Shown here: one piece after another, positions 11,706 to 61,278 of the stretch
How positions within the stretch are numbered: position 1 is the first letter of the stretch
How the letters are laid out: every line of letters starts with the position of its first letter
Origin: a virus
Taxonomy: Duplodnaviria; Caudoviricetes
Reading direction: 5' to 3' (one strand)
Virus record (IMG/VR): IMGVR_UViG_3300035502_000313
Coordinates: 32,001-96,000 of that record
DNA: 64,000 nucleotides
Translations under genes and position numbers: made by a program
Notes under the pieces: model-generated
Told to the model about the DNA's origin: nothing
The model's database searches: none
Seen by the model: the letters and a program-made list of their open reading frames with translations, nothing else

Positions 11706-12539
11706 ATGAATAATCAAGTTATTGGAAGTATTATTCTTGAAGCTGCATCTAATCCAATTGATTTGAATGTTATTGCTGAAAATAATGGTAAAGTTGAAGC
11801 TACAGGTATTATTCAGGATGCTGATGTAGAAAACAGAAATGGACGTATCTATGAAGAGAAAGATTTAAAGCCTGAGGTTTATTCAGATAGAATTCAGAAA
11901 GAACTTATTCCTACTGGTAATATGAGAGGACATGATGGTCACCCATCTTCTTCTGAACTTTCTGTACAGTCTGTTATTGATCCTAAGTTATGCTCTGTTC
12001 AATTCACTAAGATTTGGATGGAAGGTAAAGATATCCATGCTAACTTTAAGGGTACTAACAATGACCTAGGAAGAGCTTTTAATGCTGATCTTCTTGAGGG
12101 TTGCAAACCATCTTTCTCTTTAAGAGCTTTAGGTTCTGTAGATAGAGAAAGAAATGGTAAGTGCTATGTAAGAAATATCAGAATCATTACATGGGATAGA
12201 GTTATTTTCCCTTCTCATAAGAGAGCATATACAACTGGTTTTGTATCACCTAAGAACGAGGGTGCTATTACTGAATCAGCACAAATGTATAATACTCAAG
12301 CTATTAATGAGAACGGTATTCTTATTCCTATTGTGAATAAACAGGTAGTAGACTATATAAAGACTGAGTCTGCTAATGTAAAGAGTATTGTAAATACATT
12401 CGATACATTATATGAATCTGCTATTATTTGTAATGGTGGTAAGAATGTTCAACTTCAGACAACTGATGGTGATAGAATCCTTATAAATCTTGAACAGTAT
12501 ATTCAGGATGAGATTATGAATTATTGTTATAATAACTAA
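11706..12539 (+). CDS. prohead core protease (T4 gp21-like)
   Basis: GIIQDAD.ENRNGRIY, GHDGHP, SFSLRALGSV, ITWDRVIFPS motifs. Confidence 0.88.
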   Translation: MNNQVIGSIILEAASNPIDLNVIAENNGKVEATGIIQDADVENRNGRIYEEKDLKPEVYSDRIQKELIPTGNMRGHDGHPSSSELSVQSVIDPKLCSVQFTKIWMEGKDIHANFKGTNNDLGRAFNADLLEGCKPSFSLRALGSVDRERNGKCYVRNIRIITWDRVIFPSHKRAYTTGFVSPKNEGAITESAQMYNTQAINENGILIPIVNKQVVDYIKTESANVKSIVNTFDTLYESAIICNGGKNVQLQTTDGDRILINLEQYIQDEIMNYCYNN

Positions 12540-12544
12540 CCTAT

Positions 12545-12571
12545 TCCAAGATAGCATTTAGCTATCTTGGA
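12545..12571 (+). terminator. terminator hairpin
   Basis: TCCAAGATAGC/GCTATCTTGGA stem followed by TTTT. Confidence 0.7.
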
Positions 12572-12613
12572 TTTTCTATGTTATCCTTATTTGCAAAAGT
12601 TATATATAATATT

Positions 12614-12953
12614 AGTGAGTAGAAGATAAATTATAAGATTTATCCTTAGAAAAGCTACTTTTAGTCTGGATGCTGGAATCTTTTATAGAGTAGGCAGTAG
12701 GTAGAGCAAGATTACTGAGAAATCATTGTACTGTAAAAGTATTTTTGCACGTTTTCCAGTAGAACAGGCAATTGTAGAGTAACGCAATTCTGGAAATGGT
12801 TATTTATGTGCAATTCCCTATATATAATAATGGGAATGTGCATTTTTTACCAATATAAAAAAAGTTCCAGATTTGCGTTGCTGGGACTGGACTTATGATT
12901 TTGATATTCCATTTTGAAAAAGAAAGACTGTCGTGAGATAGGCTTTCTTTTTT
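12614..12953 (+). ncRNA. candidate ~340-nt structured non-coding RNA
   Basis: Early-type promoter at 12603-12611, family-A 5' motif, at least three further stem-loops, terminator at 12917-12953, no RBS-led ORF. Confidence 0.6.
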
Positions 12954-13001
12954 GTCTTATTAGAGCAACTTTTTAATAAATGAAAGGAGATGATACCTAA
13001 C

Positions 13002-14198
13002 ATGGCTAATGGAAACAATAACATGAATATTACAGAAGTTATTGATAAAGAGATTTTACCGATTGTTTCTAATACTCTTTCTAAATCTTTGAGTAAATAC
13101 AAATCTTTAATGAGTAAGTTTATGAACACTAGGTCAACATCTCTCTATGATACTTTCCCTGCCACACGTTGTACATACGGACAACAGGATGCTGATGAAT
13201 TGTATGCTGTATTTGGTAAGTCTGAAAAAGAACTTCAGGAAATTATAAATAAGACATACTATTCTCAAATTCCAAACTTCAATCCAAGAACTGCTAAGAA
13301 TCCAGTAACAGTTCTATCTATCTGTATTATTAAGTATTTCTTAAGTAAGAATGATAAAAAGAATCTTGATGTAGCTATTATTTATATGTCATTTACTGGT
13401 GGATTCTATCCATCTATTCACTATGGTTCTTATCCTTCTGCTGTACCTGCAGATTATAGATGGGTATGTGACTATGTAGTAAATAATGAATTGTCTAATA
13501 AGTTTGACCTTAAGAAAACTGGTTCTGTTATTGGAACTGTTCAATCTATTGGTGCTACTTGGGTAGATGCATATAAAGATAGATTAAAAGGAAAAACAGA
13601 TGATGAAGAATATGTCTATGTAATACAACAGTTACATATGCGTATTAAATCATTCATTCAAAACACTGCTGAGATATATTATAAGTGTTATCAGAATAAA
13701 GAGTATCTTACATATGATAGTGATGATATGTCTGAAGATAATTTTAGACTTACTGAAAATGATAGTACAAAAATCGATGCAATTACAAATAGAACCATGA
13801 CTTGGATTACTACACATGATATAGATTATCGTTTATGTAAGATGTGTGCAGACTCTAACGTTAAAACAGAAGAGATTAAATCTATTATAGAATCTATTGT
13901 AAAGAATACTGATAATATAGATACTGTAAGAGAACTTGTATCTCTAATCATTGCTAACTATTTCAAAGCTAGTAAGAATAAAGACGTTAGAGATATAGAG
14001 TTTATTTCTTTCTCTATTAAAGCTAAACCTAATACAAAAGATAAGGATGTATTACGACAGAATCAAATCGTTGATACATTCTTATGTGAGAATAGTATTG
14101 CTTATAATAGACGTAAAAGTCGTGAAGCTACTAAGAATAGCTATAATAGAGCTGTTTTAACATATTTCGTATTAATCATAAACCAATCAAATAAATAA
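13002..14198 (+). CDS. hypothetical protein (late-type promoter)
   Basis: ~400-aa ORF with RBS AAAGGAG and AACT-N6-TA at 12967-12978. Confidence 0.8.
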   Translation: MANGNNNMNITEVIDKEILPIVSNTLSKSLSKYKSLMSKFMNTRSTSLYDTFPATRCTYGQQDADELYAVFGKSEKELQEIINKTYYSQIPNFNPRTAKNPVTVLSICIIKYFLSKNDKKNLDVAIIYMSFTGGFYPSIHYGSYPSAVPADYRWVCDYVVNNELSNKFDLKKTGSVIGTVQSIGATWVDAYKDRLKGKTDDEEYVYVIQQLHMRIKSFIQNTAEIYYKCYQNKEYLTYDSDDMSEDNFRLTENDSTKIDAITNRTMTWITTHDIDYRLCKMCADSNVKTEEIKSIIESIVKNTDNIDTVRELVSLIIANYFKASKNKDVRDIEFISFSIKAKPNTKDKDVLRQNQIVDTFLCENSIAYNRRKSREATKNSYNRAVLTYFVLIINQSNK

Positions 14199-15003: not shown

Positions 15004-15013
15004 AATAATAAAA

Positions 15014-15039
15014 GCCCCTGAGGAGATTAATCCTCAGGG
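15014..15039. terminator. bidirectional terminator between convergent genes
   Basis: CCCCTGAGGA/TCCTCAGGGG stem. Confidence 0.65.
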
Positions 15040-15317
15040 GTGTTATCTATAACAAGTGATTTTAATCTTCTTTTTACTTCTTCGATACAACTTCCAATAG
15101 AATCTGCATCGTCTTTCAATGATATTTCAAATTCAACGTTTACGGAATCACTTGAAAATGATAATGAAGTTATCTGGTTTAATGTAAGCCCATACTCTTT
15201 ATTAACAACAGTAGTTATCACATCATCAATCTCAATTGTCAAATCAAGCACTTTCTTCAAATGTGATATCTTAGAAATATCTAATGCAATAACTACTTTT
15301 ATATATTCCTTATTCAA
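15027..15317 (-). CDS. hypothetical protein
   Basis: 96-aa ORF overlapping the upstream stop codon. Confidence 0.65.
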   Translation of the reverse strand: MNKEYIKVVIALDISKISHLKKVLDLTIEIDDVITTVVNKEYGLTLNQITSLSFSSDSVNVEFEISLKDDADSIGSCIEEVKRRLKSLVIDNTPED

Positions 15318-17985: not shown

Positions 17986-20364
17986 TTAATTGCCTTTCTT
18001 GTATACTCTTACCACTTCTCCTCCCTTAATCATCTTAGTTCCAGTACTAATACTCGTTCCTGAAGGAATACTAGATACTGGTACTTCAATTATTTCTCCA
18101 GTAGGTGCAAGTGTCACGATAAGAGTGTCTGTCGGATTTACACCATAAATAGATGTAATATTGTCTGTCTTACCTAACTTGATTACATTGCTTCCAGCTT
18201 TACTACGTCCTTTCTGAACACAATCTGGAATAATCTTATTAATGTAACCATTCTTTGTAACAACGACAATGTCTTTGAATGATTTTGAGATTACTGACAT
18301 TCCTTCAACCTGAGTTGTCTTAGAAGACATTGAGATACATCCTCTAGAGTTTCTCTTAAGAATCGGAATATCATTAATATCAATACGTAATGCTTTCTTG
18401 TTTCCATATACAACAATCTCAGCATTATTGTTAAACAAAAGGATATCAATTATTCTATCATCACCATCAAGTTTACAGTATACAATACCGCTTGCAGGTA
18501 CAGATAGAAAATCGGTTGTAGTCATTCTCTTAACAAATCCATCCTTTGTAAGAGTTACAATAAATCCCTTGTTATATTGCTCCATAATTGGTTGATAAAT
18601 AACAGTAGTGATATTACTATTAATATACTTATTAATAAGTCTAATATCTATACCATTAGAGTTTTTATCAGCAAATGGAATCTTGTTAATTGGAATATCA
18701 AATACTTTACCAAACTCATCGAATAATAAAAGGTCTTTACTGTTATCACCATTAATAACAAACTTGACATTATCATTCTTAGGCTTAATGATATTATCAT
18801 CAATACCAATTTTCTTAATGAAGTTATTTTCTGTAAGAACAATCTTAAACATTCCAGCAGCAACTCCATTAACTTCTGATTCTGAAATCAGTTTACATTT
18901 TCTCGGTTCACCAAACTTAGCTTTAATATCTGTAAGTTCATCAATGATAATCTGTTCTATAGCACCATCTGTAAGAACAATATCACTACATTCTTTTACA
19001 TCTTTCTTAAGCTTTGCTTGTTCCTGTTTAAAGCCATTGTAATAACCCATTGATAACTTCTTCAATTCACAATTGATAAAGAACTTAGCTTGAATATCAG
19101 TAAGTTTACATTTCTTAATCAATGTTTCAATCAAAGCATTATCATCAATAGTCTTAGCCTTTTTGATGATATTAATAATATCTTCTGAGATACCTTTCTC
19201 CATAGCCATAACATACATCTCTACAACGTGTAGTCGAGTCATTAGCTTCTGAAGTCTATGCTCATAATATCTAAGCTTTGTCAACTTTCTAAAGTCAATC
19301 CATGCTTGTAGATATCCTCTATAAGATAATCTCTTTGCAGGATTATCTTTATCATTAATATCGAGTACTTTTAGATTTACTCTGGCTGTCTGCATCATAT
19401 TGGTATTTCTATATATCTCATTTCTGATATAGTTTGGATCTGTACCTGGCTTTAATACAATAACATATCTCATATTGTTAAGGTCAGACTGTTCCTCCAT
19501 ATCTACAATACCAATAATCTTGTTGGTTTTAATCATATCTTCGAGCTTATTGATAACAGTCTCAAGGAAAGTAAGATTAGGACAAGATTTAATTACAAGT
19601 GTCATACAATCTTTATACTTCTTCTCTACTCCCTTATAAGGTTCTATATCAATAACACCTCTTACCTTATAATTACCGAACCCTTTACTATTAATCTCAG
19701 ACCATTTAGTATCAACAATTTCACATGCTTGACAATGATCCGGAATTAATGTAAATCTAGCTTTAGGATTCTTTATAAGAGCTATTGTAACATCAATAAC
19801 TTCATTAATGTTATGACTAGGTACATCTACCTTATCACCAACACTAATACCTGTACACCCATTAATTAAAAGAAGTGGTACTTTACAAGGTAGAAAACTT
19901 GGTTCTTTTCTTGAGTTATCGTAATTAGGTTCCCAATCGACAATCTCTTTAGAAGATACCAGCTCATCGATGATACATTCTTGAGCAAATTTACTGAGTC
20001 TAACTTCAGTATATCTTGCTGCTGCAGGTACATTCTGATAAGTATTACCAAAATTTCCCTGCCCTTTAAACAATGGTACCTTTGTCTGATACCAGTTTAC
20101 TAATGTGTACAATGCACCTTGGATACTAGAATCACCATGAGGATGATAATGACCCATTGTGCTACCAATAATATCTGCTGATTTCCTATTTCTATCATCA
20201 GCCTTAGATATGAATTTAGCAGTATAAAGAATTCTTCTCTGTACTGGTTTCAATCCATCTCTAAATTCAGGTGTTGTTCTATGTCTTTCAACATACAACG
20301 CATATTCTTTGTAATCTTTCACGTACTGTTCGGATGCCTTTACAGACACTATGTTTTCTGGCAT
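17986..20364 (-). CDS. gyrA: type IIA topoisomerase subunit A (GyrA-like, with beta-pinwheel CTD)
   Basis: RDGLKPVQRRILY, YHPHGDSSI, GQGNFG, catalytic AARYTE, LLINGCTGISVG, repeated CTD blades (TKDGFVKR, TKNGYINK). Confidence 0.93.
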   Translation of the reverse strand: MPENIVSVKASEQYVKDYKEYALYVERHRTTPEFRDGLKPVQRRILYTAKFISKADDRNRKSADIIGSTMGHYHPHGDSSIQGALYTLVNWYQTKVPLFKGQGNFGNTYQNVPAAARYTEVRLSKFAQECIIDELVSSKEIVDWEPNYDNSRKEPSFLPCKVPLLLINGCTGISVGDKVDVPSHNINEVIDVTIALIKNPKARFTLIPDHCQACEIVDTKWSEINSKGFGNYKVRGVIDIEPYKGVEKKYKDCMTLVIKSCPNLTFLETVINKLEDMIKTNKIIGIVDMEEQSDLNNMRYVIVLKPGTDPNYIRNEIYRNTNMMQTARVNLKVLDINDKDNPAKRLSYRGYLQAWIDFRKLTKLRYYEHRLQKLMTRLHVVEMYVMAMEKGISEDIINIIKKAKTIDDNALIETLIKKCKLTDIQAKFFINCELKKLSMGYYNGFKQEQAKLKKDVKECSDIVLTDGAIEQIIIDELTDIKAKFGEPRKCKLISESEVNGVAAGMFKIVLTENNFIKKIGIDDNIIKPKNDNVKFVINGDNSKDLLLFDEFGKVFDIPINKIPFADKNSNGIDIRLINKYINSNITTVIYQPIMEQYNKGFIVTLTKDGFVKRMTTTDFLSVPASGIVYCKLDGDDRIIDILLFNNNAEIVVYGNKKALRIDINDIPILKRNSRGCISMSSKTTQVEGMSVISKSFKDIVVVTKNGYINKIIPDCVQKGRSKAGSNVIKLGKTDNITSIYGVNPTDTLIVTLAPTGEIIEVPVSSIPSGTSISTGTKMIKGGEVVRVYKKGN

Positions 20365-32977: not shown

Positions 32978-33111
32978 TATATATTATCTATGTAATAAGT
33001 AGAGATAGAATTAGACTATCCTTTGAACAGCTACTTAAAGTCCAGTTCATGACAATAAACCGAGCGTCATACGAAATAAGCCATGTTTCAAAATTTAAGG
33101 AGGAAACAAAA
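32978..33111 (+). promoter_or_regulatory. early-type promoter plus structured leader, family A
   Basis: TAAGTAG/CTACTTA outer stem and GATAG/CTATC inner hairpin; homologous to 12614 and 58991. Confidence 0.6.
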
Positions 33112-34602
33112 ATGAAAGTACGTAAAAATAATATGTCAGACAACAGCAGCACGGAGATTATGAAAAGGATATTTAATAACTTCCTTACATCCGATAGAAG
33201 TTTAATGACCTTTGTTGTTAAACAGGGAAGGAACGATTTCTATGTAGTCATGATAGTAAAGGATGTTGTTGGAGCTAAATACTCTGTTCATCCTGAAGAC
33301 ACAGTCTTTACCTTCGTAGCTCCATTACGTGTATATGGAACACGAAAAATGAAGACTAAATCAAATCATGTTATCAAAGTCCATGTTAATGGTAAAATCG
33401 GAACCATTAACAGTGATGATATATATGAAATCAGCACTCAGAATCTGTTTAAAGATTACTGTTACATATGTAATCTTTCCAAGTCCGATACAAAGAGTGC
33501 CGTAACAGCATTCATAAATTCATCTGCATGGTCAGAGAATGGAATATCTAATGCTGACTTCAATGAAAATGACTTCGAGTCTATCGATGCAGTTAAGATG
33601 ATGCTGTCTGACGAAGAAGAAGTCACAACCGAGGTCGATCAGGAAGTATCTGAAGTAATAGAGGCTGAATATGAAGAAATCTCAACTGAGGTTGCTGAGC
33701 CTGATACAATGTCTGATGAAGACAGAATCCTTGAAGCGTTTATGAATGAGAAATTTGTGTCAGAGCAGATTATCAATATTCATAATGAAATGCTTGACAA
33801 TCTGATAATTCCACCGGATGAAGTTCTTGACTTTATGAAAAGAGCTGATTCCAACTGCAATTATCTGCAGTCATTGCAGGAAAATGAGAAACAGCTTATT
33901 GATTCTCATAAAGTGACAATCGATTCTATCAGTGATCTTAGAGATAAGATAGAGTCTCTTAAAACTAAGCTTACTGAGCTTGAGGCGATATCTGAGAAAG
34001 AAGAATCTCTTGATATTGGACTTAAGAAATCAATCGTTGATATTAAATCCAACGTTGAAACAGATATCCGTAAACTCAACTCATTTATGGAATCTGCAAA
34101 GAGAGAAAAGGCTGCTTCAGAAATGCGTAATCGTATAGACAGTATGCTTAGTGGACTTTCTAACGATGAGGCAGAGTATCTCAGAAGCAAACTTGGAATT
34201 AGTAGTACTCCTGCTATTGAAATGAAGACTTCTGAAATCGTTATCACTGACGGTGCTTGTGTTAGTGACAACGCAAACGGATATTCATGGGCAGAATACA
34301 AATCACATATCGTGGATGTTTGCCAGGGACATTCTCTCCCTAGCAAGCTTGTATTCAAGGCATTGGCTGATGTAATTAAAAATGGCATGACTCATGCTAC
34401 ATTGGCTGATAAACTCAATAGTGTACATTATGCTAACAAAGCTATTGAGTTCTGCAGAAAGTATGGCTATCTTCCTGAGAAGAAGAAATATGCAAAGCGT
34501 AGAGTTTCTTCAGATCAGATAAAAAATAGAGGCAAAGCCATCACTACAAATTCCAAGAAGAGAAAGGAAGCTATCGAAATGGCTTTCAACTCTAACAAGT
34601 AA
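33112..34602 (+). CDS. hypothetical protein with central coiled coil
   Basis: ATG at 33112 behind AAGGAGG; heptad-rich middle; terminator at 34609-34640. Confidence 0.8.
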   Translation: MKVRKNNMSDNSSTEIMKRIFNNFLTSDRSLMTFVVKQGRNDFYVVMIVKDVVGAKYSVHPEDTVFTFVAPLRVYGTRKMKTKSNHVIKVHVNGKIGTINSDDIYEISTQNLFKDYCYICNLSKSDTKSAVTAFINSSAWSENGISNADFNENDFESIDAVKMMLSDEEEVTTEVDQEVSEVIEAEYEEISTEVAEPDTMSDEDRILEAFMNEKFVSEQIINIHNEMLDNLIIPPDEVLDFMKRADSNCNYLQSLQENEKQLIDSHKVTIDSISDLRDKIESLKTKLTELEAISEKEESLDIGLKKSIVDIKSNVETDIRKLNSFMESAKREKAASEMRNRIDSMLSGLSNDEAEYLRSKLGISSTPAIEMKTSEIVITDGACVSDNANGYSWAEYKSHIVDVCQGHSLPSKLVFKALADVIKNGMTHATLADKLNSVHYANKAIEFCRKYGYLPEKKKYAKRRVSSDQIKNRGKAITTNSKKRKEAIEMAFNSNK

Positions 34603-35999: not shown

Positions 36000-36092
36000 A
36001 AGAGAGAACACCCTGTGGTTGATAGGGGTGTTCTTTTTTGTCTTATAACTTGAACTTTAATATAAATGACTAATGTAAAGGAGGATATAATA

Positions 36093-57747: not shown

Positions 57748-57775
57748 TGATATCTACCTCCTTTCATTAAAGATA

Positions 57776-58231
57776 TTATAAGGCAGTTCTATTGTGTTCT
57801 ATAACAAATGTAGTTACCTTAAAGTAAACTCTCTTAGCAATAATGTCGAATATTGCATCTTCATTATAATATAATGCTAACTGCTTAAGCATTACAGGAG
57901 ATATTCTATCACTTACAAGTGCACAAATATCTTTACTGATTTTAATTTCGTCTTCTTCTTTAATATACCAATCTGTTTTATATACAAGATTCATTAAAGA
58001 ATACTCTTGGAAACAGCTCTCTATTACTTTATCAAGTCTGGTTTCAATATCTTCAGTTACATTCAAATGTGTGTCTATGTCATATTTTCTAAGCTCTAGT
58101 TCATCATACTTGAATGCAAGCCATTTACTAAATAGCTTAGATATTACAATCTCACTGCACAGTATTACTATCAGAATTATTCCAAAAATAATAAGGGTTT
58201 GGAGATTCAATTGTGTGTAAAGCACTTCCAT
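57776..58231 (-). CDS. membrane protein (N-terminal TM)
   Basis: Hydrophobic LIIFGIILIVILCSEIVI segment. Confidence 0.7.
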   Translation of the reverse strand: MEVLYTQLNLQTLIIFGIILIVILCSEIVISKLFSKWLAFKYDELELRKYDIDTHLNVTEDIETRLDKVIESCFQEYSLMNLVYKTDWYIKEEDEIKISKDICALVSDRISPVMLKQLALYYNEDAIFDIIAKRVYFKVTTFVIEHNRTAL

Positions 58232-58977: not shown

Positions 58978-59161
58978 TATATATAATACAAGTGAGTAAG
59001 AGATAATTATAAGATTATCCTAGAATGGCTTACTTGGTCTTAGCTCTAAAAGACCTTTAAAAATTAGGGCAGTTGTTAATACATAAAATGGCATTGCTGA
59101 TATCGGAACAGTCGCAATGCCTAAAACCTATGTTCCATCGTATGTACTAGGAGGTACTATT
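58978..59161 (+). promoter_or_regulatory. early-type promoter plus family-A leader and downstream pseudoknot
   Basis: GAGTAAG/CTTACTT and GATAAT/ATTATC stems; GGCATTGC/GCAATGCC hairpin whose loop GGAACA is complementary to TGTTCC just before the RBS. Confidence 0.65.
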
Positions 59162-59518
59162 ATGACAGACGTAAATAAAATAAACAACACAACAACTACA
59201 GCATCTGAAACAGAAACGAGAAAAAAAGCGGAGGAGTCCATCGACAAGTGGGCTAGTGCTGTTGTCGATCATAAAGTAAAGACAACAGTTGATGAAAAAA
59301 TTAAAGAAGTTGTAGGCGATATTGAGGCTACTGTTAAGGCAGCCATTGGCGATATTAAAACAAAAGTAGGTGATGCGAAAATAGAGGTAAATCCGACTAT
59401 AAATATCACAGTAAATCCGTCAATAACAGTTGGTGGAAACATATCGATTGATGAAAGGAGGATTGATAACGATTTAGACTCCTTTGCAAAACTTCTTGAA
59501 ATCATCGCAAAAAAATAA
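59162..59518 (+). CDS. hypothetical early protein (118 aa)
   Basis: ATG at 59162 behind AGGAGG; terminator at 59524-59556. Confidence 0.75.
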   Translation: MTDVNKINNTTTTASETETRKKAEESIDKWASAVVDHKVKTTVDEKIKEVVGDIEATVKAAIGDIKTKVGDAKIEVNPTINITVNPSITVGGNISIDERRIDNDLDSFAKLLEIIAKK

Positions 59519-59574: not shown

Positions 59575-61278
59575 TTAACCAATATCAGATGTGTTTACCC
59601 AACCAGATACATAAGTTCCAGCAGGTGTCTTTCCTACATTGCTTGAGGAATTAGTTATACGAATTCTTCCATTAGAAACATCACTACTGTAAATATAGTA
59701 TGTTCCTGACTTCTTAGAAGAGTACTTGGTTGCAGTAGCAGTTGAATATAATGCAGTGCTCTTTAATACAACTTTAGTACCAGCCTTTAATGAAGAAGAA
59801 GTAGATGTAGTTCCAGAAACAACAGATACATCAACCCAACCAGATACATAAGTTCCAACAGGAGTCTTACCTACATTGCTAGCAGAGTTAGTTACACGTA
59901 TTCTATTATTTACAACTTCTGTACTATATACATAGTAAGTACCAGATTTCTTATTACCAACCTTAACAGTTGATGTACTATATAATGTATCACCAGATAG
60001 TGTTACTTTAGTACCAGCTTTAATTGCTATGGATGATGTACTACTTGTAGTAGTGGTTGAAGTTGTTGTGTTAGAAGATGATGTAGTAGTTGTAGATGAA
60101 GAAGATGTTCCATATACATCAGACTTAGAAAGACCATAATACTTATAGAAGTCAGATGTTACAGTATTGTTATTTACACATTCATCACCCTTCCAGATAT
60201 TAGATGTTCTAGCATCTAGATGTGTAGAAGTATATGATGATGTAATATTAGCAATACCACCAAGTCCTAAATCTTGTGCAACACAAGAAATAATCTTTGA
60301 GGAAATAACCTTTTTATTTTTATCATAGAATACAATATCTACAGCATTACCAACACCATGCTGACCAACAAATCCACCAATAGTCTTATCATATGTAGGA
60401 CAACGATAACCACTATTAATGATAGCCATAGAGCAGTTTAATGTATCCATAATCTTTTCAAGTTGATATACAAGATAATGATTAACAAGAATACTATGAT
60501 CTGAACCACACTTGCACTTAAACTCTTGTACATTAAAATGCTTAGAAATCTGTGTCTTATCTGTACTAGCATATGTAGTAACCTTATTCTCAGGAGCAGA
60601 CTTAGATGTAGAAACCACATAACTAGTAGTAGAAGTAGTAGACTCTGTTACTGTAGAAGAAGTAGTAGATGAACCAAGGTTATTTAAACCAAGCTTCTTA
60701 ATCTTTGCAGGATAATCATCTACATAGCAATAATCAAGGTCAACACTACCACTAATACCACTAACAGTACCAGTGCTAGAATACTGCCAAATGGTTTTCT
60801 GTGTCCAAGGTGTAGAGCTAGCATAATGAGCAATAGCAAGATCATACTTAGAATATACAGATTCAGAAATATAACTCTTGATAAAGCTATAGTATGTGTA
60901 TACACCAGGATAATAACCAGCATCTCTTAATGTATCACAAAACGCTGGAATAATTACATCAGCAACCGACTTACTAGTCTGAGTCTTATGTTCAATATCA
61001 AACAAAATAGGATACTCAAACTTCTTACCTTTTAGACATTCAATGCATGCTTTTGCTTCTTGAATAGCTTCTGCCTTAGTAGTAGCATAAGAGAACCAAT
61101 AAGCACCCTTTGGAATACCATACTTCTCACAGGCAGCATAATACTCTTCAAATCTATCATCTTTCTGAGATACTAGCTTACCATATCCTGCTCTCAAAAT
61201 AGCAAAATCAATTTCACTCTTAGTCTTAGACCAATCAATCGATCTTTGCCAAACAGAAACATCAATTCCTTTTAACAT
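59575..61278 (-). CDS. endolysin: GH25 muramidase + peptidase M15 + two SH3-like cell-wall-binding repeats
   Basis: KGIDVS.WQ, FAILRAGYG, FDIE, WQYSS.G.V.GI.G.VDLD; HFNVQEFKCKC...INSGYRC...H..GNAVDI...THLD.R; duplicated C-terminal KAGTKV.L...SGWV units with S/T linkers. Confidence 0.9.
   Translation of the reverse strand: MLKGIDVSVWQRSIDWSKTKSEIDFAILRAGYGKLVSQKDDRFEEYYAACEKYGIPKGAYWFSYATTKAEAIQEAKACIECLKGKKFEYPILFDIEHKTQTSKSVADVIIPAFCDTLRDAGYYPGVYTYYSFIKSYISESVYSKYDLAIAHYASSTPWTQKTIWQYSSTGTVSGISGSVDLDYCYVDDYPAKIKKLGLNNLGSSTTSSTVTESTTSTTSYVVSTSKSAPENKVTTYASTDKTQISKHFNVQEFKCKCGSDHSILVNHYLVYQLEKIMDTLNCSMAIINSGYRCPTYDKTIGGFVGQHGVGNAVDIVFYDKNKKVISSKIISCVAQDLGLGGIANITSSYTSTHLDARTSNIWKGDECVNNNTVTSDFYKYYGLSKSDVYGTSSSSTTTTSSSNTTTSTTTTSSTSSIAIKAGTKVTLSGDTLYSTSTVKVGNKKSGTYYVYSTEVVNNRIRVTNSASNVGKTPVGTYVSGWVDVSVVSGTTSTSSSLKAGTKVVLKSTALYSTATATKYSSKKSGTYYIYSSDVSNGRIRITNSSSNVGKTPAGTYVSGWVNTSDIG

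What the first reader, a model, noticed from the sequence alone, without database searches (positions are those of the whole stretch)
12603..12953. Stand-alone ~340-nt structured ncRNA with its own promoter and terminator
Seen: this stretch lies between the protease terminator (12545-12571) and the next gene's promoter (12967). It has an early-type promoter (TATATAAT) and the family-A 5' motif. Further stems are TTTCCAG/CTGGAAA (12753-12796, enclosing AATTG/CAATT), ATGTGCA-ATTCCC/GGGAAT-GTGCAT (12806-12843) and AGTTCCAG/CTGGGACT (12863-12888), then a terminator. No RBS-led ORF is present in a genome that is otherwise densely coding with strong RBSs. I do not recognise it as tmRNA, RNase P RNA, 6S, SRP or a T-box. 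Inference: an undescribed early phage RNA. It shares its 5' domain with two mRNA leaders, so it could be a decoy for the factor that binds them, or an anti-defence RNA.
Basis: partly seen in the sequence, partly recalled or inferred. Interest (0 to 1): 0.82.

Follow-up and report, generated by a model that had tools for sequence, protein, structure and literature searches.

The report
ORF-less early cassette in jumbo phage
Between two head genes of an uncultured AR9-like jumbo phage lies a promoter-to-terminator unit with no gene inside: it probably makes a ~335-nt RNA, but its body occurs in no related phage, so it looks more like a leftover of cassette shuffling than a conserved RNA gene.

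Summary
The anatomy is largely as described. A 450-nt gap with no RBS-led ORF holds a strong early-type promoter (predicted start G12617), a 5' two-helix module shared with mRNA leaders, a hairpin-rich body and a terminator. Rfam finds nothing. Three corrections apply.

- **Stems:** Only this 3' half is unusually stable (z -5.4), and 3% of windows in this genome reach z below -5.
- **Leader:** the shared 5' module is real and covaries across at least 19 copies in four genomes. Every other copy ends in GGAGG plus ATG. This copy breaks off after leader-model position 66 of 175.
- **Conservation:** the gap is a hypervariable cassette slot (450-2240 nt in about 20 relatives, filled with unrelated small genes). 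The 235-nt body has no homologue in any collection searched.

An RNA is probably made, but nothing shows a function for its body. My best reading is an ORF-less product of modular cassette shuffling, like T4 PeSL regions (0.45). The main rival is a lineage-specific functional ncRNA (0.33). No expression data could be obtained. This scan noted the same stretch once before, on the same DNA.

The parts
12545..12571 (+). Terminator of the prohead-protease gene (11-bp perfect stem, 5-nt loop, T-run); left border of the variable slot
   Evidence: the alignment with the closest relative loses similarity right after the protease stop codon
12601..12616 (+). Early-type promoter box TATATATAAT plus the 6-nt spacer ATTAGT
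   Evidence: PWM 25.3 bits, rank 10 genome-wide, when held out of training. 5 exact TATATATAATA in the window against 0.92 expected. AR9 early consensus from PMC5312081.
12617..12660 (+). Family-A 5' module. Predicted +1 is G12617. Helix P1 is 12617-12622/12655-12660, enclosing hairpin P2 12625-12631/12638-12644.
   Evidence: 16-sequence alignment: 92% of cells paired, 6 pairs with compensatory change, 0/500 shuffles reach the covariation score, slid controls 30-55% paired. All 13 pairs are canonical in this copy.
12661..12680 (+). Last stretch homologous to the leader family (..AGTCTGGATGCTGGAATC). Homology ends here, at leader-model position 66 of 175.
   Evidence: nhmmer: E 1e-11 for model positions 2-66 only; nothing for the 3' half of the model even with filters off
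12681..12915 (+). Orphan body: no ORF and no homologue. Internally repetitive: CTGGAA/TTCCAG four times, GCAATT three times.
   Evidence: no match; about 0.2 copies of each motif expected from genome-wide frequency.
12755..12891 (+). Long irregular hairpin, core 12778-12882 (10+7+4+7+5 pairs), closed by TCCAGT/ACTGGA
   Evidence: Pair probabilities 0.8-1.0. z -5.4 on the + strand, -4.2 on the - strand for 12775-12915. Inverted repeat I1.
12806..12849 (+). Inner hairpin ATGTGCAATTCCC/GGGAATGTGCAT followed by T6, which is terminator-like. Its 13-nt loop carries a promoter-like box TATATATAAT (12819-12828).
   Evidence: Fold -12.5 kcal/mol. The box scores only 10.4 bits, below all 21 training promoters. 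It has the strongest box-spanning stem of 345 boxes in 5 genomes.
12916..12953 (+). Terminator (11+5 pairs, U-run); right border module. It is conserved in front of the next gene in relatives.
   Evidence: 87-88% identical in L006/L008/L010/L072/L076 at the same place. Other copies lie in the own genome.
12967..13005 (+). Late-type promoter-like AACT-(6N)-TA, RBS AAAGGAG (12984-12990) and the probable start ATG 13003 of the next, conserved 398-402-aa gene
   Evidence: Sequence conserved in all relatives. AR9 late consensus is AACA-(6N)-TA/G. The tblastn matches start at residue 5.

Best explanation
The stretch is an ORF-less early expression cassette. It sits in a hyperplastic slot between the prohead protease gene and the next late gene of an AR9/PBS1-like jumbo phage.

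In relatives, this slot holds interchangeable units built as terminator, early promoter, structured leader, RBS plus small ORF, terminator. Here the unit keeps an intact promoter and the first ~65 nt of the family-A leader, including its covarying 5' two-helix module, which starts at the predicted +1. The leader then breaks off into 235 nt of orphan, ORF-free sequence and ends at the slot's conserved terminator.

I infer that the virion-type RNA polymerase transcribes it early into an RNA of ~335 nt (G12617 to ~12953). A shorter ~233-nt form is possible if the inner hairpin plus U6 at 12806-12849 terminates. I also infer that the unit arose by illegitimate or module-guided recombination of the kind described for T4-type PeSL regions, and that the body has no conserved sequence-specific function.

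Shown: the anatomy, the module homology, the covariation of the 5' module, the variability of the slot, and the orphan status of the body. Inferred: transcription, the ends of the RNA, and the origin by shuffling.
For: 1. The slot is hypervariable. Its length is 450-2240 nt in about 20 loci whose flanking genes are 68-95% identical. It is filled with unrelated RBS-led genes: a 116-aa helix-turn-helix-like (XRE-like) protein by my reading of its sequence, a 252-aa ORF that looks like a homing endonuclease by eye, a protease-like fragment, and a CCCYGG-motif family.
2. Only the promoter-leader (query 1-75) and the terminator (query 318-361) match relatives, and they match at many unrelated places. 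They are portable flank modules.
3. 19 other family-A leaders in 4 genomes all run on to GGAGG plus ATG. This copy matches model positions 2-66 only. The break falls inside the conserved GTCTGGATGCTCGG helix region and loses its partner strands, the GGAACA/TGTTCC helix and the RBS.
4. The body has no DNA or translated match anywhere searched.
5. The closest relatives (L004/L078) carry, in the same slot, another ORF-less mini-unit: a promoter-like box, ~75 nt and a terminator.
6. The middle of the body (12670-12800) is no more structured than shuffles.
7. PeSL regions of T4-type phages show the same logic of repeated promoter/stem-loop modules driving gene gain, loss and replacement (PMC2839356).
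Against: - The promoter is among the best in the genome, and all 13 pairs of the 5' module are intact although the nearest sampled copy is 16% diverged. This is not what a long-abandoned relic would look like.
- The 3' half forms a 33-pair hairpin with z -5.4, and it folds better on the transcribed strand (-43.4 against -32.5 kcal/mol).
- Short motifs recur far above expectation (CTGGAA four times, GCAATT three times).
- No remnant of a lost ORF could be found by tblastx.
- Phage genomes rarely keep 350 nt of junk. This gap is the 4th largest of 154 in a crude gene call.
- Orphan status is also typical of the functional ORFan genes that fill this slot in relatives, so it does not by itself show a lack of function.
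Confidence: 0.45

Rival explanations
1. It is a lineage-specific functional non-coding RNA. The early promoter and the 5' module (protection of the 5' end, or binding of the factor that recognises family-A leaders) deliver a stable ~335-nt RNA. Its working part would be the long, nearly continuous 33-pair hairpin 12778-12882. That hairpin could act as a double-stranded RNA decoy or substrate (for example for RNase III-type or dsRNA-sensing host factors), or as a sponge for a protein that binds the repeated CUGGAA/GCAAUU motifs.
For: - Whole-RNA z is -5.9 and the 3' half is -5.4, with the + strand favoured.
- The promoter (rank 10) and the covarying 5' module are intact.
- Motifs are repeated above expectation.
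- It is the only one of 20 family-A-headed units without an ORF.
- The gap is large for this genome.
Against: - There is no homologue, hence no covariation, for the body.
- 3% of windows in this genome reach a similar z.
- The middle domain is not structured beyond chance.
- No complementarity to any phage mRNA beyond 13-15 nt chance matches.
- One decoy copy against three mRNA copies is a weak titrator.
- There are no expression data.
Confidence: 0.33
2. It is a DNA-level or composite regulatory element rather than one RNA gene. The nested palindrome 12778-12882 is centred on a promoter-like box (12819-12828). It would act, PeSL-fashion, both as an attenuator or terminator for transcripts from 12601 (hairpin 12806-12843 plus U6) and as a second, perhaps protein-regulated, promoter. 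That promoter would give a ~119-nt RNA ending at 12953.
For: - The box TATATATAATAAT lies exactly in the loop, and T6 follows the stem.
- It is the strongest box-spanning stem among 345 boxes in 5 genomes, and weaker inverted repeats also flank several genuine family-A promoters.
- PeSL stem-loops overlap promoter boxes (PMC2839356).
Against: - The box scores 10.4 bits, below all 21 training promoters (minimum 16.2). It lacks the AGTGA start region and would start at A, not G. The AR9 virion polymerase is reported to be intolerant of single deviations (PMC5312081).
- A 13-nt loop is poor for an intrinsic terminator.
- The half-site motifs recur nowhere else in the genome.
Confidence: 0.1
3. 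It is an mRNA for a very small protein translated without a canonical RBS. One candidate is the 30-aa hydrophobic ORF 12806-12898 (type-I-toxin-like, held silent by the mRNA structure). Another is the 13-codon ORF at 12896.
For: - The 30-aa ORF has a hydrophobic core.
- The highly structured RNA, with possible 5'-3' pairing, recalls type I toxin mRNAs. That resemblance comes from my own knowledge and is not tested.
Against: - There is no Shine-Dalgarno sequence in a genome where GGAGG is the rule.
- From base composition I estimate about 0.5 ATG ORFs of >=30 codons in 340 nt by chance.
- No tblastn match in the phage collection, even at E<=1.
- The ORF runs through the hairpin stems.
Confidence: 0.05

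Closest known systems
PeSL (promoter-early stem-loop) regulatory cassettes of T4-type phages (Arbiol et al. 2010, PMC2839356)
   Same: Repeated promoter and stem-loop/terminator modules flank small accessory genes in hyperplastic regions between conserved genes. The modules are shared while the cargo differs between close relatives. Stem-loops can overlap the promoter box.
   Different: The promoters here are of the AR9-like virion-polymerase type, not sigma-70. The modules include a long structured 5' leader. This unit carries no ORF at all. Recombination between modules was not shown here.
Family-A structured 5' leaders of this phage clade
   Same: The same promoter type, and the same P1/P2 5' module starting at the predicted +1, through ..GTCTGGATGCT.
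   Different: It lacks the GCTCG/CTGAGC helix partner, the GGAACA/TGTTCC helix, the GGAGG RBS and the start codon. It is followed instead by 235 nt of unrelated sequence and a terminator.
AR9 early transcription units (Lavysh et al. 2017, PMC5312081)
   Same: An AT-rich extended promoter, TATATAWWAT-(6N)-G, like AAATATATATTAT-(6N)-G+1. That paper reports long 5' UTRs (26-491 nt).
   Different: AR9 early promoters were mapped in front of genes, and that paper does not use the word 'noncoding'. The phage here is only distantly related (protease 33% identical).
Phage-encoded small or structured RNAs, e.g. the four ncRNAs annotated in jumbo phage PA5oct (PMC7318152 abstract)
   Same: An intergenic, promoter-to-terminator, ORF-less unit in a jumbo phage.
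   Different: There is no sequence or Rfam relationship, and no expression evidence here.

Membership tests
Any Rfam 15 family (tmRNA, RNase P, 6S, SRP, T-box, riboswitches, ribozymes, known sRNAs) | Covariance-model score at or above the family's gathering threshold | tested here: not met
   no match at gathering scores. The best sub-threshold hits are 15-23 bits against cut-offs of 35-114. ARAGORN finds nothing.
AR9-type early (virion RNAP) promoter | Extended AT-rich box followed after 6 nt by a G start | tested here: met
   TATATATAAT (12601-12610) + ATTAGT + G12617. PWM 25.3 bits, rank 10 in the genome. Consensus from PMC5312081.
AR9-type early (virion RNAP) promoter | Primary 5' end mapped at the predicted +1, early in infection | not testable with these tools
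Family-A leader of this clade | 5' module: helix P1 from +1 enclosing hairpin P2 | tested here: met
   All 13 pairs are canonical. The family shows covariation.
Family-A leader of this clade | 3' half: GCTCG/CTGAGC helix, GGAACA/TGTTCC helix, then GGAGG and ATG | tested here: not met
   nhmmer aligns model positions 2-66 only, with filters off. There is no RBS-led ORF.
PeSL-like modular cassette | Lies in a hyperplastic region between conserved genes; flank modules are repeated elsewhere in the genome | tested here: met
PeSL-like modular cassette | Sigma-70-type promoter read by host RNAP, immediately upstream of an ORFan | tested here: not met
   The promoter is of the AR9 early type. There is no ORF downstream.
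PeSL-like modular cassette | Recombination between modules (mini-circles, replacement junctions) demonstrated | not testable with these tools
   Only inferred, from the break of homology at 12680 and at the two terminators.
Intrinsic terminator | Stable hairpin directly followed by a U-run | tested here: met
   12916-12953: 11+5 pairs, -16.7 kcal/mol, U6. The simple scan missed it.
Conserved structured ncRNA gene | Homologues in related genomes with compensatory base changes in the body | tested here: not met
   No homologue of 12681-12915 in 5 genomes, 38 syntenic or related loci, or 4 collections.
Type I toxin mRNA | Small hydrophobic ORF with a (sequestered) Shine-Dalgarno sequence and a cognate antisense RNA | tested here: not met
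   There is no SD before 12806. No promoter above 8.1 bits on the minus strand in the region.

The most novel reading that the evidence does not exclude
An early, virion-polymerase-made, ~335-nt non-coding RNA that is specific to this phage lineage. It would reuse the 5' module of early mRNA leaders for stability or factor binding. It would present a 33-pair dsRNA-like hairpin as a decoy or sponge against a host RNA-processing or defence factor. That would make it an RNA cargo in a slot that otherwise carries accessory protein genes.
Probability: 0.3. Interest if true: 0.65.

Novelty: new variant of a known kind. Interest (0 to 1): 0.36.

Why it matters
If the RNA is functional, jumbo-phage accessory slots would trade RNA cargo as well as protein genes. 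It would also give a compact test object (5' module plus long hairpin) for early RNA-based host takeover.

If it is a by-product, it is a clean snapshot of how promoter-leader and terminator modules reshuffle genes in AR9-like phages, extending the T4 PeSL idea to phages that use their own RNA polymerases.

The more robust result is the family-A leader itself. It is a covarying ~150-180-nt 5' UTR, repeated at least 19 times in front of unrelated early genes, with no Rfam match.

Tried and rejected
- **Replication origin or R-loop origin.** Cumulative GC skew follows transcription direction and has no extreme here. Dropped.
- **Antisense or anti-SD regulator of a phage mRNA.** Only chance-level 12-15-nt matches apart from terminator-family copies.
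- **Decayed protein gene.** tblastx against 5 genomes and 28 loci, and tblastn of the longest open frame against 50,697 phage records, gave nothing.
- **Degenerate 3' end of the family-A leader.** I considered that 12861-12898 (GTTCCAG, 24 nt, ATG) might be this, because the spacing is similar. nhmmer with filters off gives no support. Rejected as unsupported.
- **Second promoter at 12819.** The PWM score is below every training promoter. Kept only as a minor rival.
- **Exact-pattern scans for the hairpin arms.** None in viral contigs. There were two hits in genome contigs, inside coding DNA of Gammaproteobacteria MAGs with no similarity beyond the two 12-mers. These are chance matches.
- **tRNA or tmRNA.** None.
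- **Alternative genetic codes.** Read by eye only. Reading TGA as sense runs the frame through the terminator with no RBS. Not pursued.

Full report
**Context.** The window is bases 32001-96000 of a 212,182-bp viral record with direct terminal repeats and 31% G+C. The gene ending at 12539 is a prohead protease: Pfam Peptidase_S77, E 1e-10, and 33% identical to the proteases of Bacillus phages Goe21, AR9 and PBS1 and of Yersinia phage phiR1-37. This is therefore a distant member of the AR9-like jumbo phages, which transcribe with their own multisubunit RNA polymerases. The next gene (start probably ATG 13003, RBS AAAGGAG) has no Pfam family. It is 90-95% identical in about 20 uncultured relatives.

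**Checking the observation.**
- The gap 12540-12989 has no RBS-led ORF. The longest ATG ORF on the + strand is 30 aa without a Shine-Dalgarno sequence. From base composition I estimate about 0.5 such ORFs by chance.
- The protease terminator 12545-12571 is a perfect 11-bp hairpin plus T-run.
- TATATATAAT at 12601 belongs to a recurrent motif, TATATAWWAT-wwt-AGTGA. There are five exact TATATATAATA in the window against 0.92 expected.
- The motif matches the experimentally mapped AR9 early consensus AAATATATATTAT-(6N)-G+1 (PMC5312081). That places the start at G12617.
- A weight matrix from 21 other promoters of this genome scores this held-out site at 25.3 bits, rank 10 of all positions on both strands.
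- The 3' hairpin 12916-12953 (11+5 pairs, U-run) folds as a terminator. It belongs to a family found at other places in this genome and at the same position in relatives.
- Rfam gives nothing at gathering scores or at E<=10. ARAGORN gives nothing.

**Structure.**
- The 342-nt RNA folds to -100.4 kcal/mol (z -5.9). The complementary strand reaches only -66 kcal/mol (z -3.8).
- Dissection shows where the signal lies: 12775-12915 has z -5.4, whereas 12670-12800 has z +0.3.
- The stable element is a long irregular hairpin, 12778-12882, of 33 pairs with pair probabilities of 0.8-1.0. A perfect TCCAGT/ACTGGA closure extends it to 12755-12891.
They are 11 kcal/mol worse and have about zero equilibrium probability. 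The stem 12806-12843 stands in both folds.
- As a background, 9 of 305 windows of 141 nt in this genome reach z<-5. The eight I inspected are dominated by strong hairpins, most of them terminator-like. The hairpin is unusual but not unique.
- CTGGAA (four times) and GCAATT (three times) are locally repeated, against about 0.2 expected each. Neither is a genome-wide motif.

**The 5' motif is a real, structured module of mRNA leaders.**
- nhmmer finds full 'family-A' leaders at 3 other places in this genome, 8 in relative G001, 5 in G005, 3 in G004 and none in the more distant G003.
- All of them run 127-194 nt from the promoter to GGAGG plus ATG of unrelated ORFs.
- The family has a conserved architecture. 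A 6-7-bp helix P1 begins at the predicted +1 and encloses hairpin P2. Then come a GCTCG/CTGAGC helix and an invariant GGAACA/TGTTCC helix.
- On a 16-sequence alignment that includes this copy, P1 and P2 are 92% paired. Six pairs show compensatory changes, no shuffle of 500 reaches the observed covariation score, and slid registers are 30-55% paired.
- In this copy all 13 pairs are canonical.
- A fold that keeps this module costs 6.7 kcal/mol more than the global minimum. The global minimum instead pairs the module with 12883-12910.
- A helix starting at +1 leaves no single-stranded 5' end. From general knowledge of 5'-end-dependent decay in Gram-positive bacteria (RNase J, RNase Y), I infer a protective role, but this is not tested.
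- Rfam has no match for two complete leaders either.

**This copy is truncated.** The profile aligns only model positions 2-66 (window 12612-12680, E 1e-11). With all filters off, nothing matches the 3' 110 positions. The break falls within GTCTGGATGCT|GGAATC, inside the conserved helix region. The partner strands, the second helix and the RBS are absent.

**The slot is hypervariable and the body is an orphan.**
- In relatives whose protease is 68-91% identical and whose downstream gene is 90-95% identical, the distance between the two genes ranges from 450 to 2240 nt.
- The slot there is filled with different RBS-led genes, each with its own early promoter, leader and terminator.
- Against the closest relative, similarity stops at the protease stop codon and resumes at TTTTTTGTCTTAT just before the late-type promoter of the next gene.
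- Of the 361-nt unit, only bases 1-75 and 318-361 match five relative genomes, and they match at many unrelated positions.
- The body (12681-12915) has no blastn or tblastx match in five complete genomes and 28 metagenome loci. It also has none in 50,697 phage records or by exact-pattern scans of IMG/VR.
- Two hits in prokaryote genomes are chance matches in coding DNA.
- L004 and L078 hold another ORF-less mini-unit in the same slot: a promoter-like box, ~75 nt and a terminator.

**Interpretation.**
- An RNA is probably made. The promoter is as good as those of genuine early genes, the 5' module is intact, and the terminator is a conserved family member. What cannot be shown is a function for the body.
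- The architecture is that of the modular early cassettes of this clade, minus the cargo. Earlier notes of this scan had also flagged such cassettes and pointed me to T4-type PeSLs. I read the PeSL paper (PMC2839356), and the logic is the same. There, repeated promoter/stem-loop modules in hyperplastic regions mediate gain, loss and replacement of ORFans.
- I therefore put 0.45 on an ORF-less product of such shuffling that is transcribed but has no conserved function. I put 0.33 on a lineage-specific functional ncRNA whose active part would be the long hairpin.
- I put 0.10 on a composite DNA/RNA regulatory element centred on the promoter-like box in the hairpin loop. That box scores only 10.4 bits, below every training promoter, yet it has the strongest box-spanning stem of 345 boxes in five genomes, and T6 follows the stem.
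- I put 0.05 on a tiny unconventional ORF. The remaining 0.07 is unassigned.
- Points against the by-product reading are the intact promoter and module, the strand-biased stability, the motif repetition, and the size of the gap (4th largest of 154 in a crude gene call).

**Novelty and score.** The unit is in no known RNA family and is unique so far. Without homologues or expression data, however, it is a candidate, not a discovery. It is best filed as a new variant of modular phage regulatory cassettes: vRNAP-type promoter, long structured leader module, no cargo. Interest is 0.36. The conserved family-A leader is the more solid and more testable result.

Noticed in passing
window 58988-59164, 32988-33114; L056:499-692 (genome 110298-110491); L024:9448-9625 and 13 more loci: Family-A leader: a 127-194-nt structured 5' UTR between an early promoter and GGAGG+ATG of unrelated genes. 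There are at least 19 copies in 4 genomes. Helices P1/P2 covary; there is also a GCTCG/CTGAGC helix (a possible pseudoknot with GGTC/GACC) and an invariant GGAACA/TGTTCC helix. No Rfam match.
   Followed up: partly
window 12540-12989 and the syntenic gaps in L004-L011, L068-L079: A hyperplastic slot between the prohead protease gene and the next late gene, 450-2240 nt long. Different relatives carry a 116-aa helix-turn-helix-like (XRE-like) protein by my reading of its sequence (L068), a 252-aa ORF that looks like a homing endonuclease by eye (L008), a second protease-like fragment (L005, L011, L070, L077, L079), and a CCCYGG-motif protein family.
   Followed up: partly
L078:2460-2560 (same in L004:3860-3960): An ORF-less mini-unit in the same slot of the closest relatives: TATATATATATAAT-AGTGAT, ~45 nt, then the hairpin GAAGACACT/AGTGTCTTC plus T-run, directly before the late promoter of the next gene.
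   Followed up: no
G004:80459 (L061), G001:90513 (L026), G005:89081 and others: Several genuine early promoters have an upstream arm complementary to the first transcribed bases (e.g. TATTCACT-box-AGTGAATA). The promoter box then sits in a potential stem-loop, reminiscent of PeSL stem-loops that overlap the promoter.
   Followed up: partly
window 12934-12983 and 36020-36069: A repeated terminator-to-late-promoter junction (TTCTTTTTTGTCTTAT..AACTTT..ATAAATGA) in front of two different genes. AACT-(6N)-TA is one mismatch from AR9's late consensus AACA-(6N)-TA/G.
   Followed up: no
genome 18929-20037, 97837-98691 and 29058-29673 (outside the window); window 57748-58151, 15004-15309: Other gaps of 300-1100 nt without an SD-led ORF of 45 aa or more in a crude gene call. 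None except 18929-20037 contains a high-scoring early promoter.
   Followed up: no
window 59575-61278 (-): A 567-aa ORF whose C-terminal third carries two ~79-aa repeats (136-nt DNA repeat D1 at 59581-59716 and 59818-59953). By eye it looks like a multidomain endolysin, suggesting a Gram-positive host. Not tested.
   Followed up: no
L096:6314-6392, L097:551-629: The two 12-mers of the hairpin arms occur 55 nt apart in coding DNA of two Gammaproteobacteria MAGs. There is no other similarity, so this is a chance match.
   Followed up: yes
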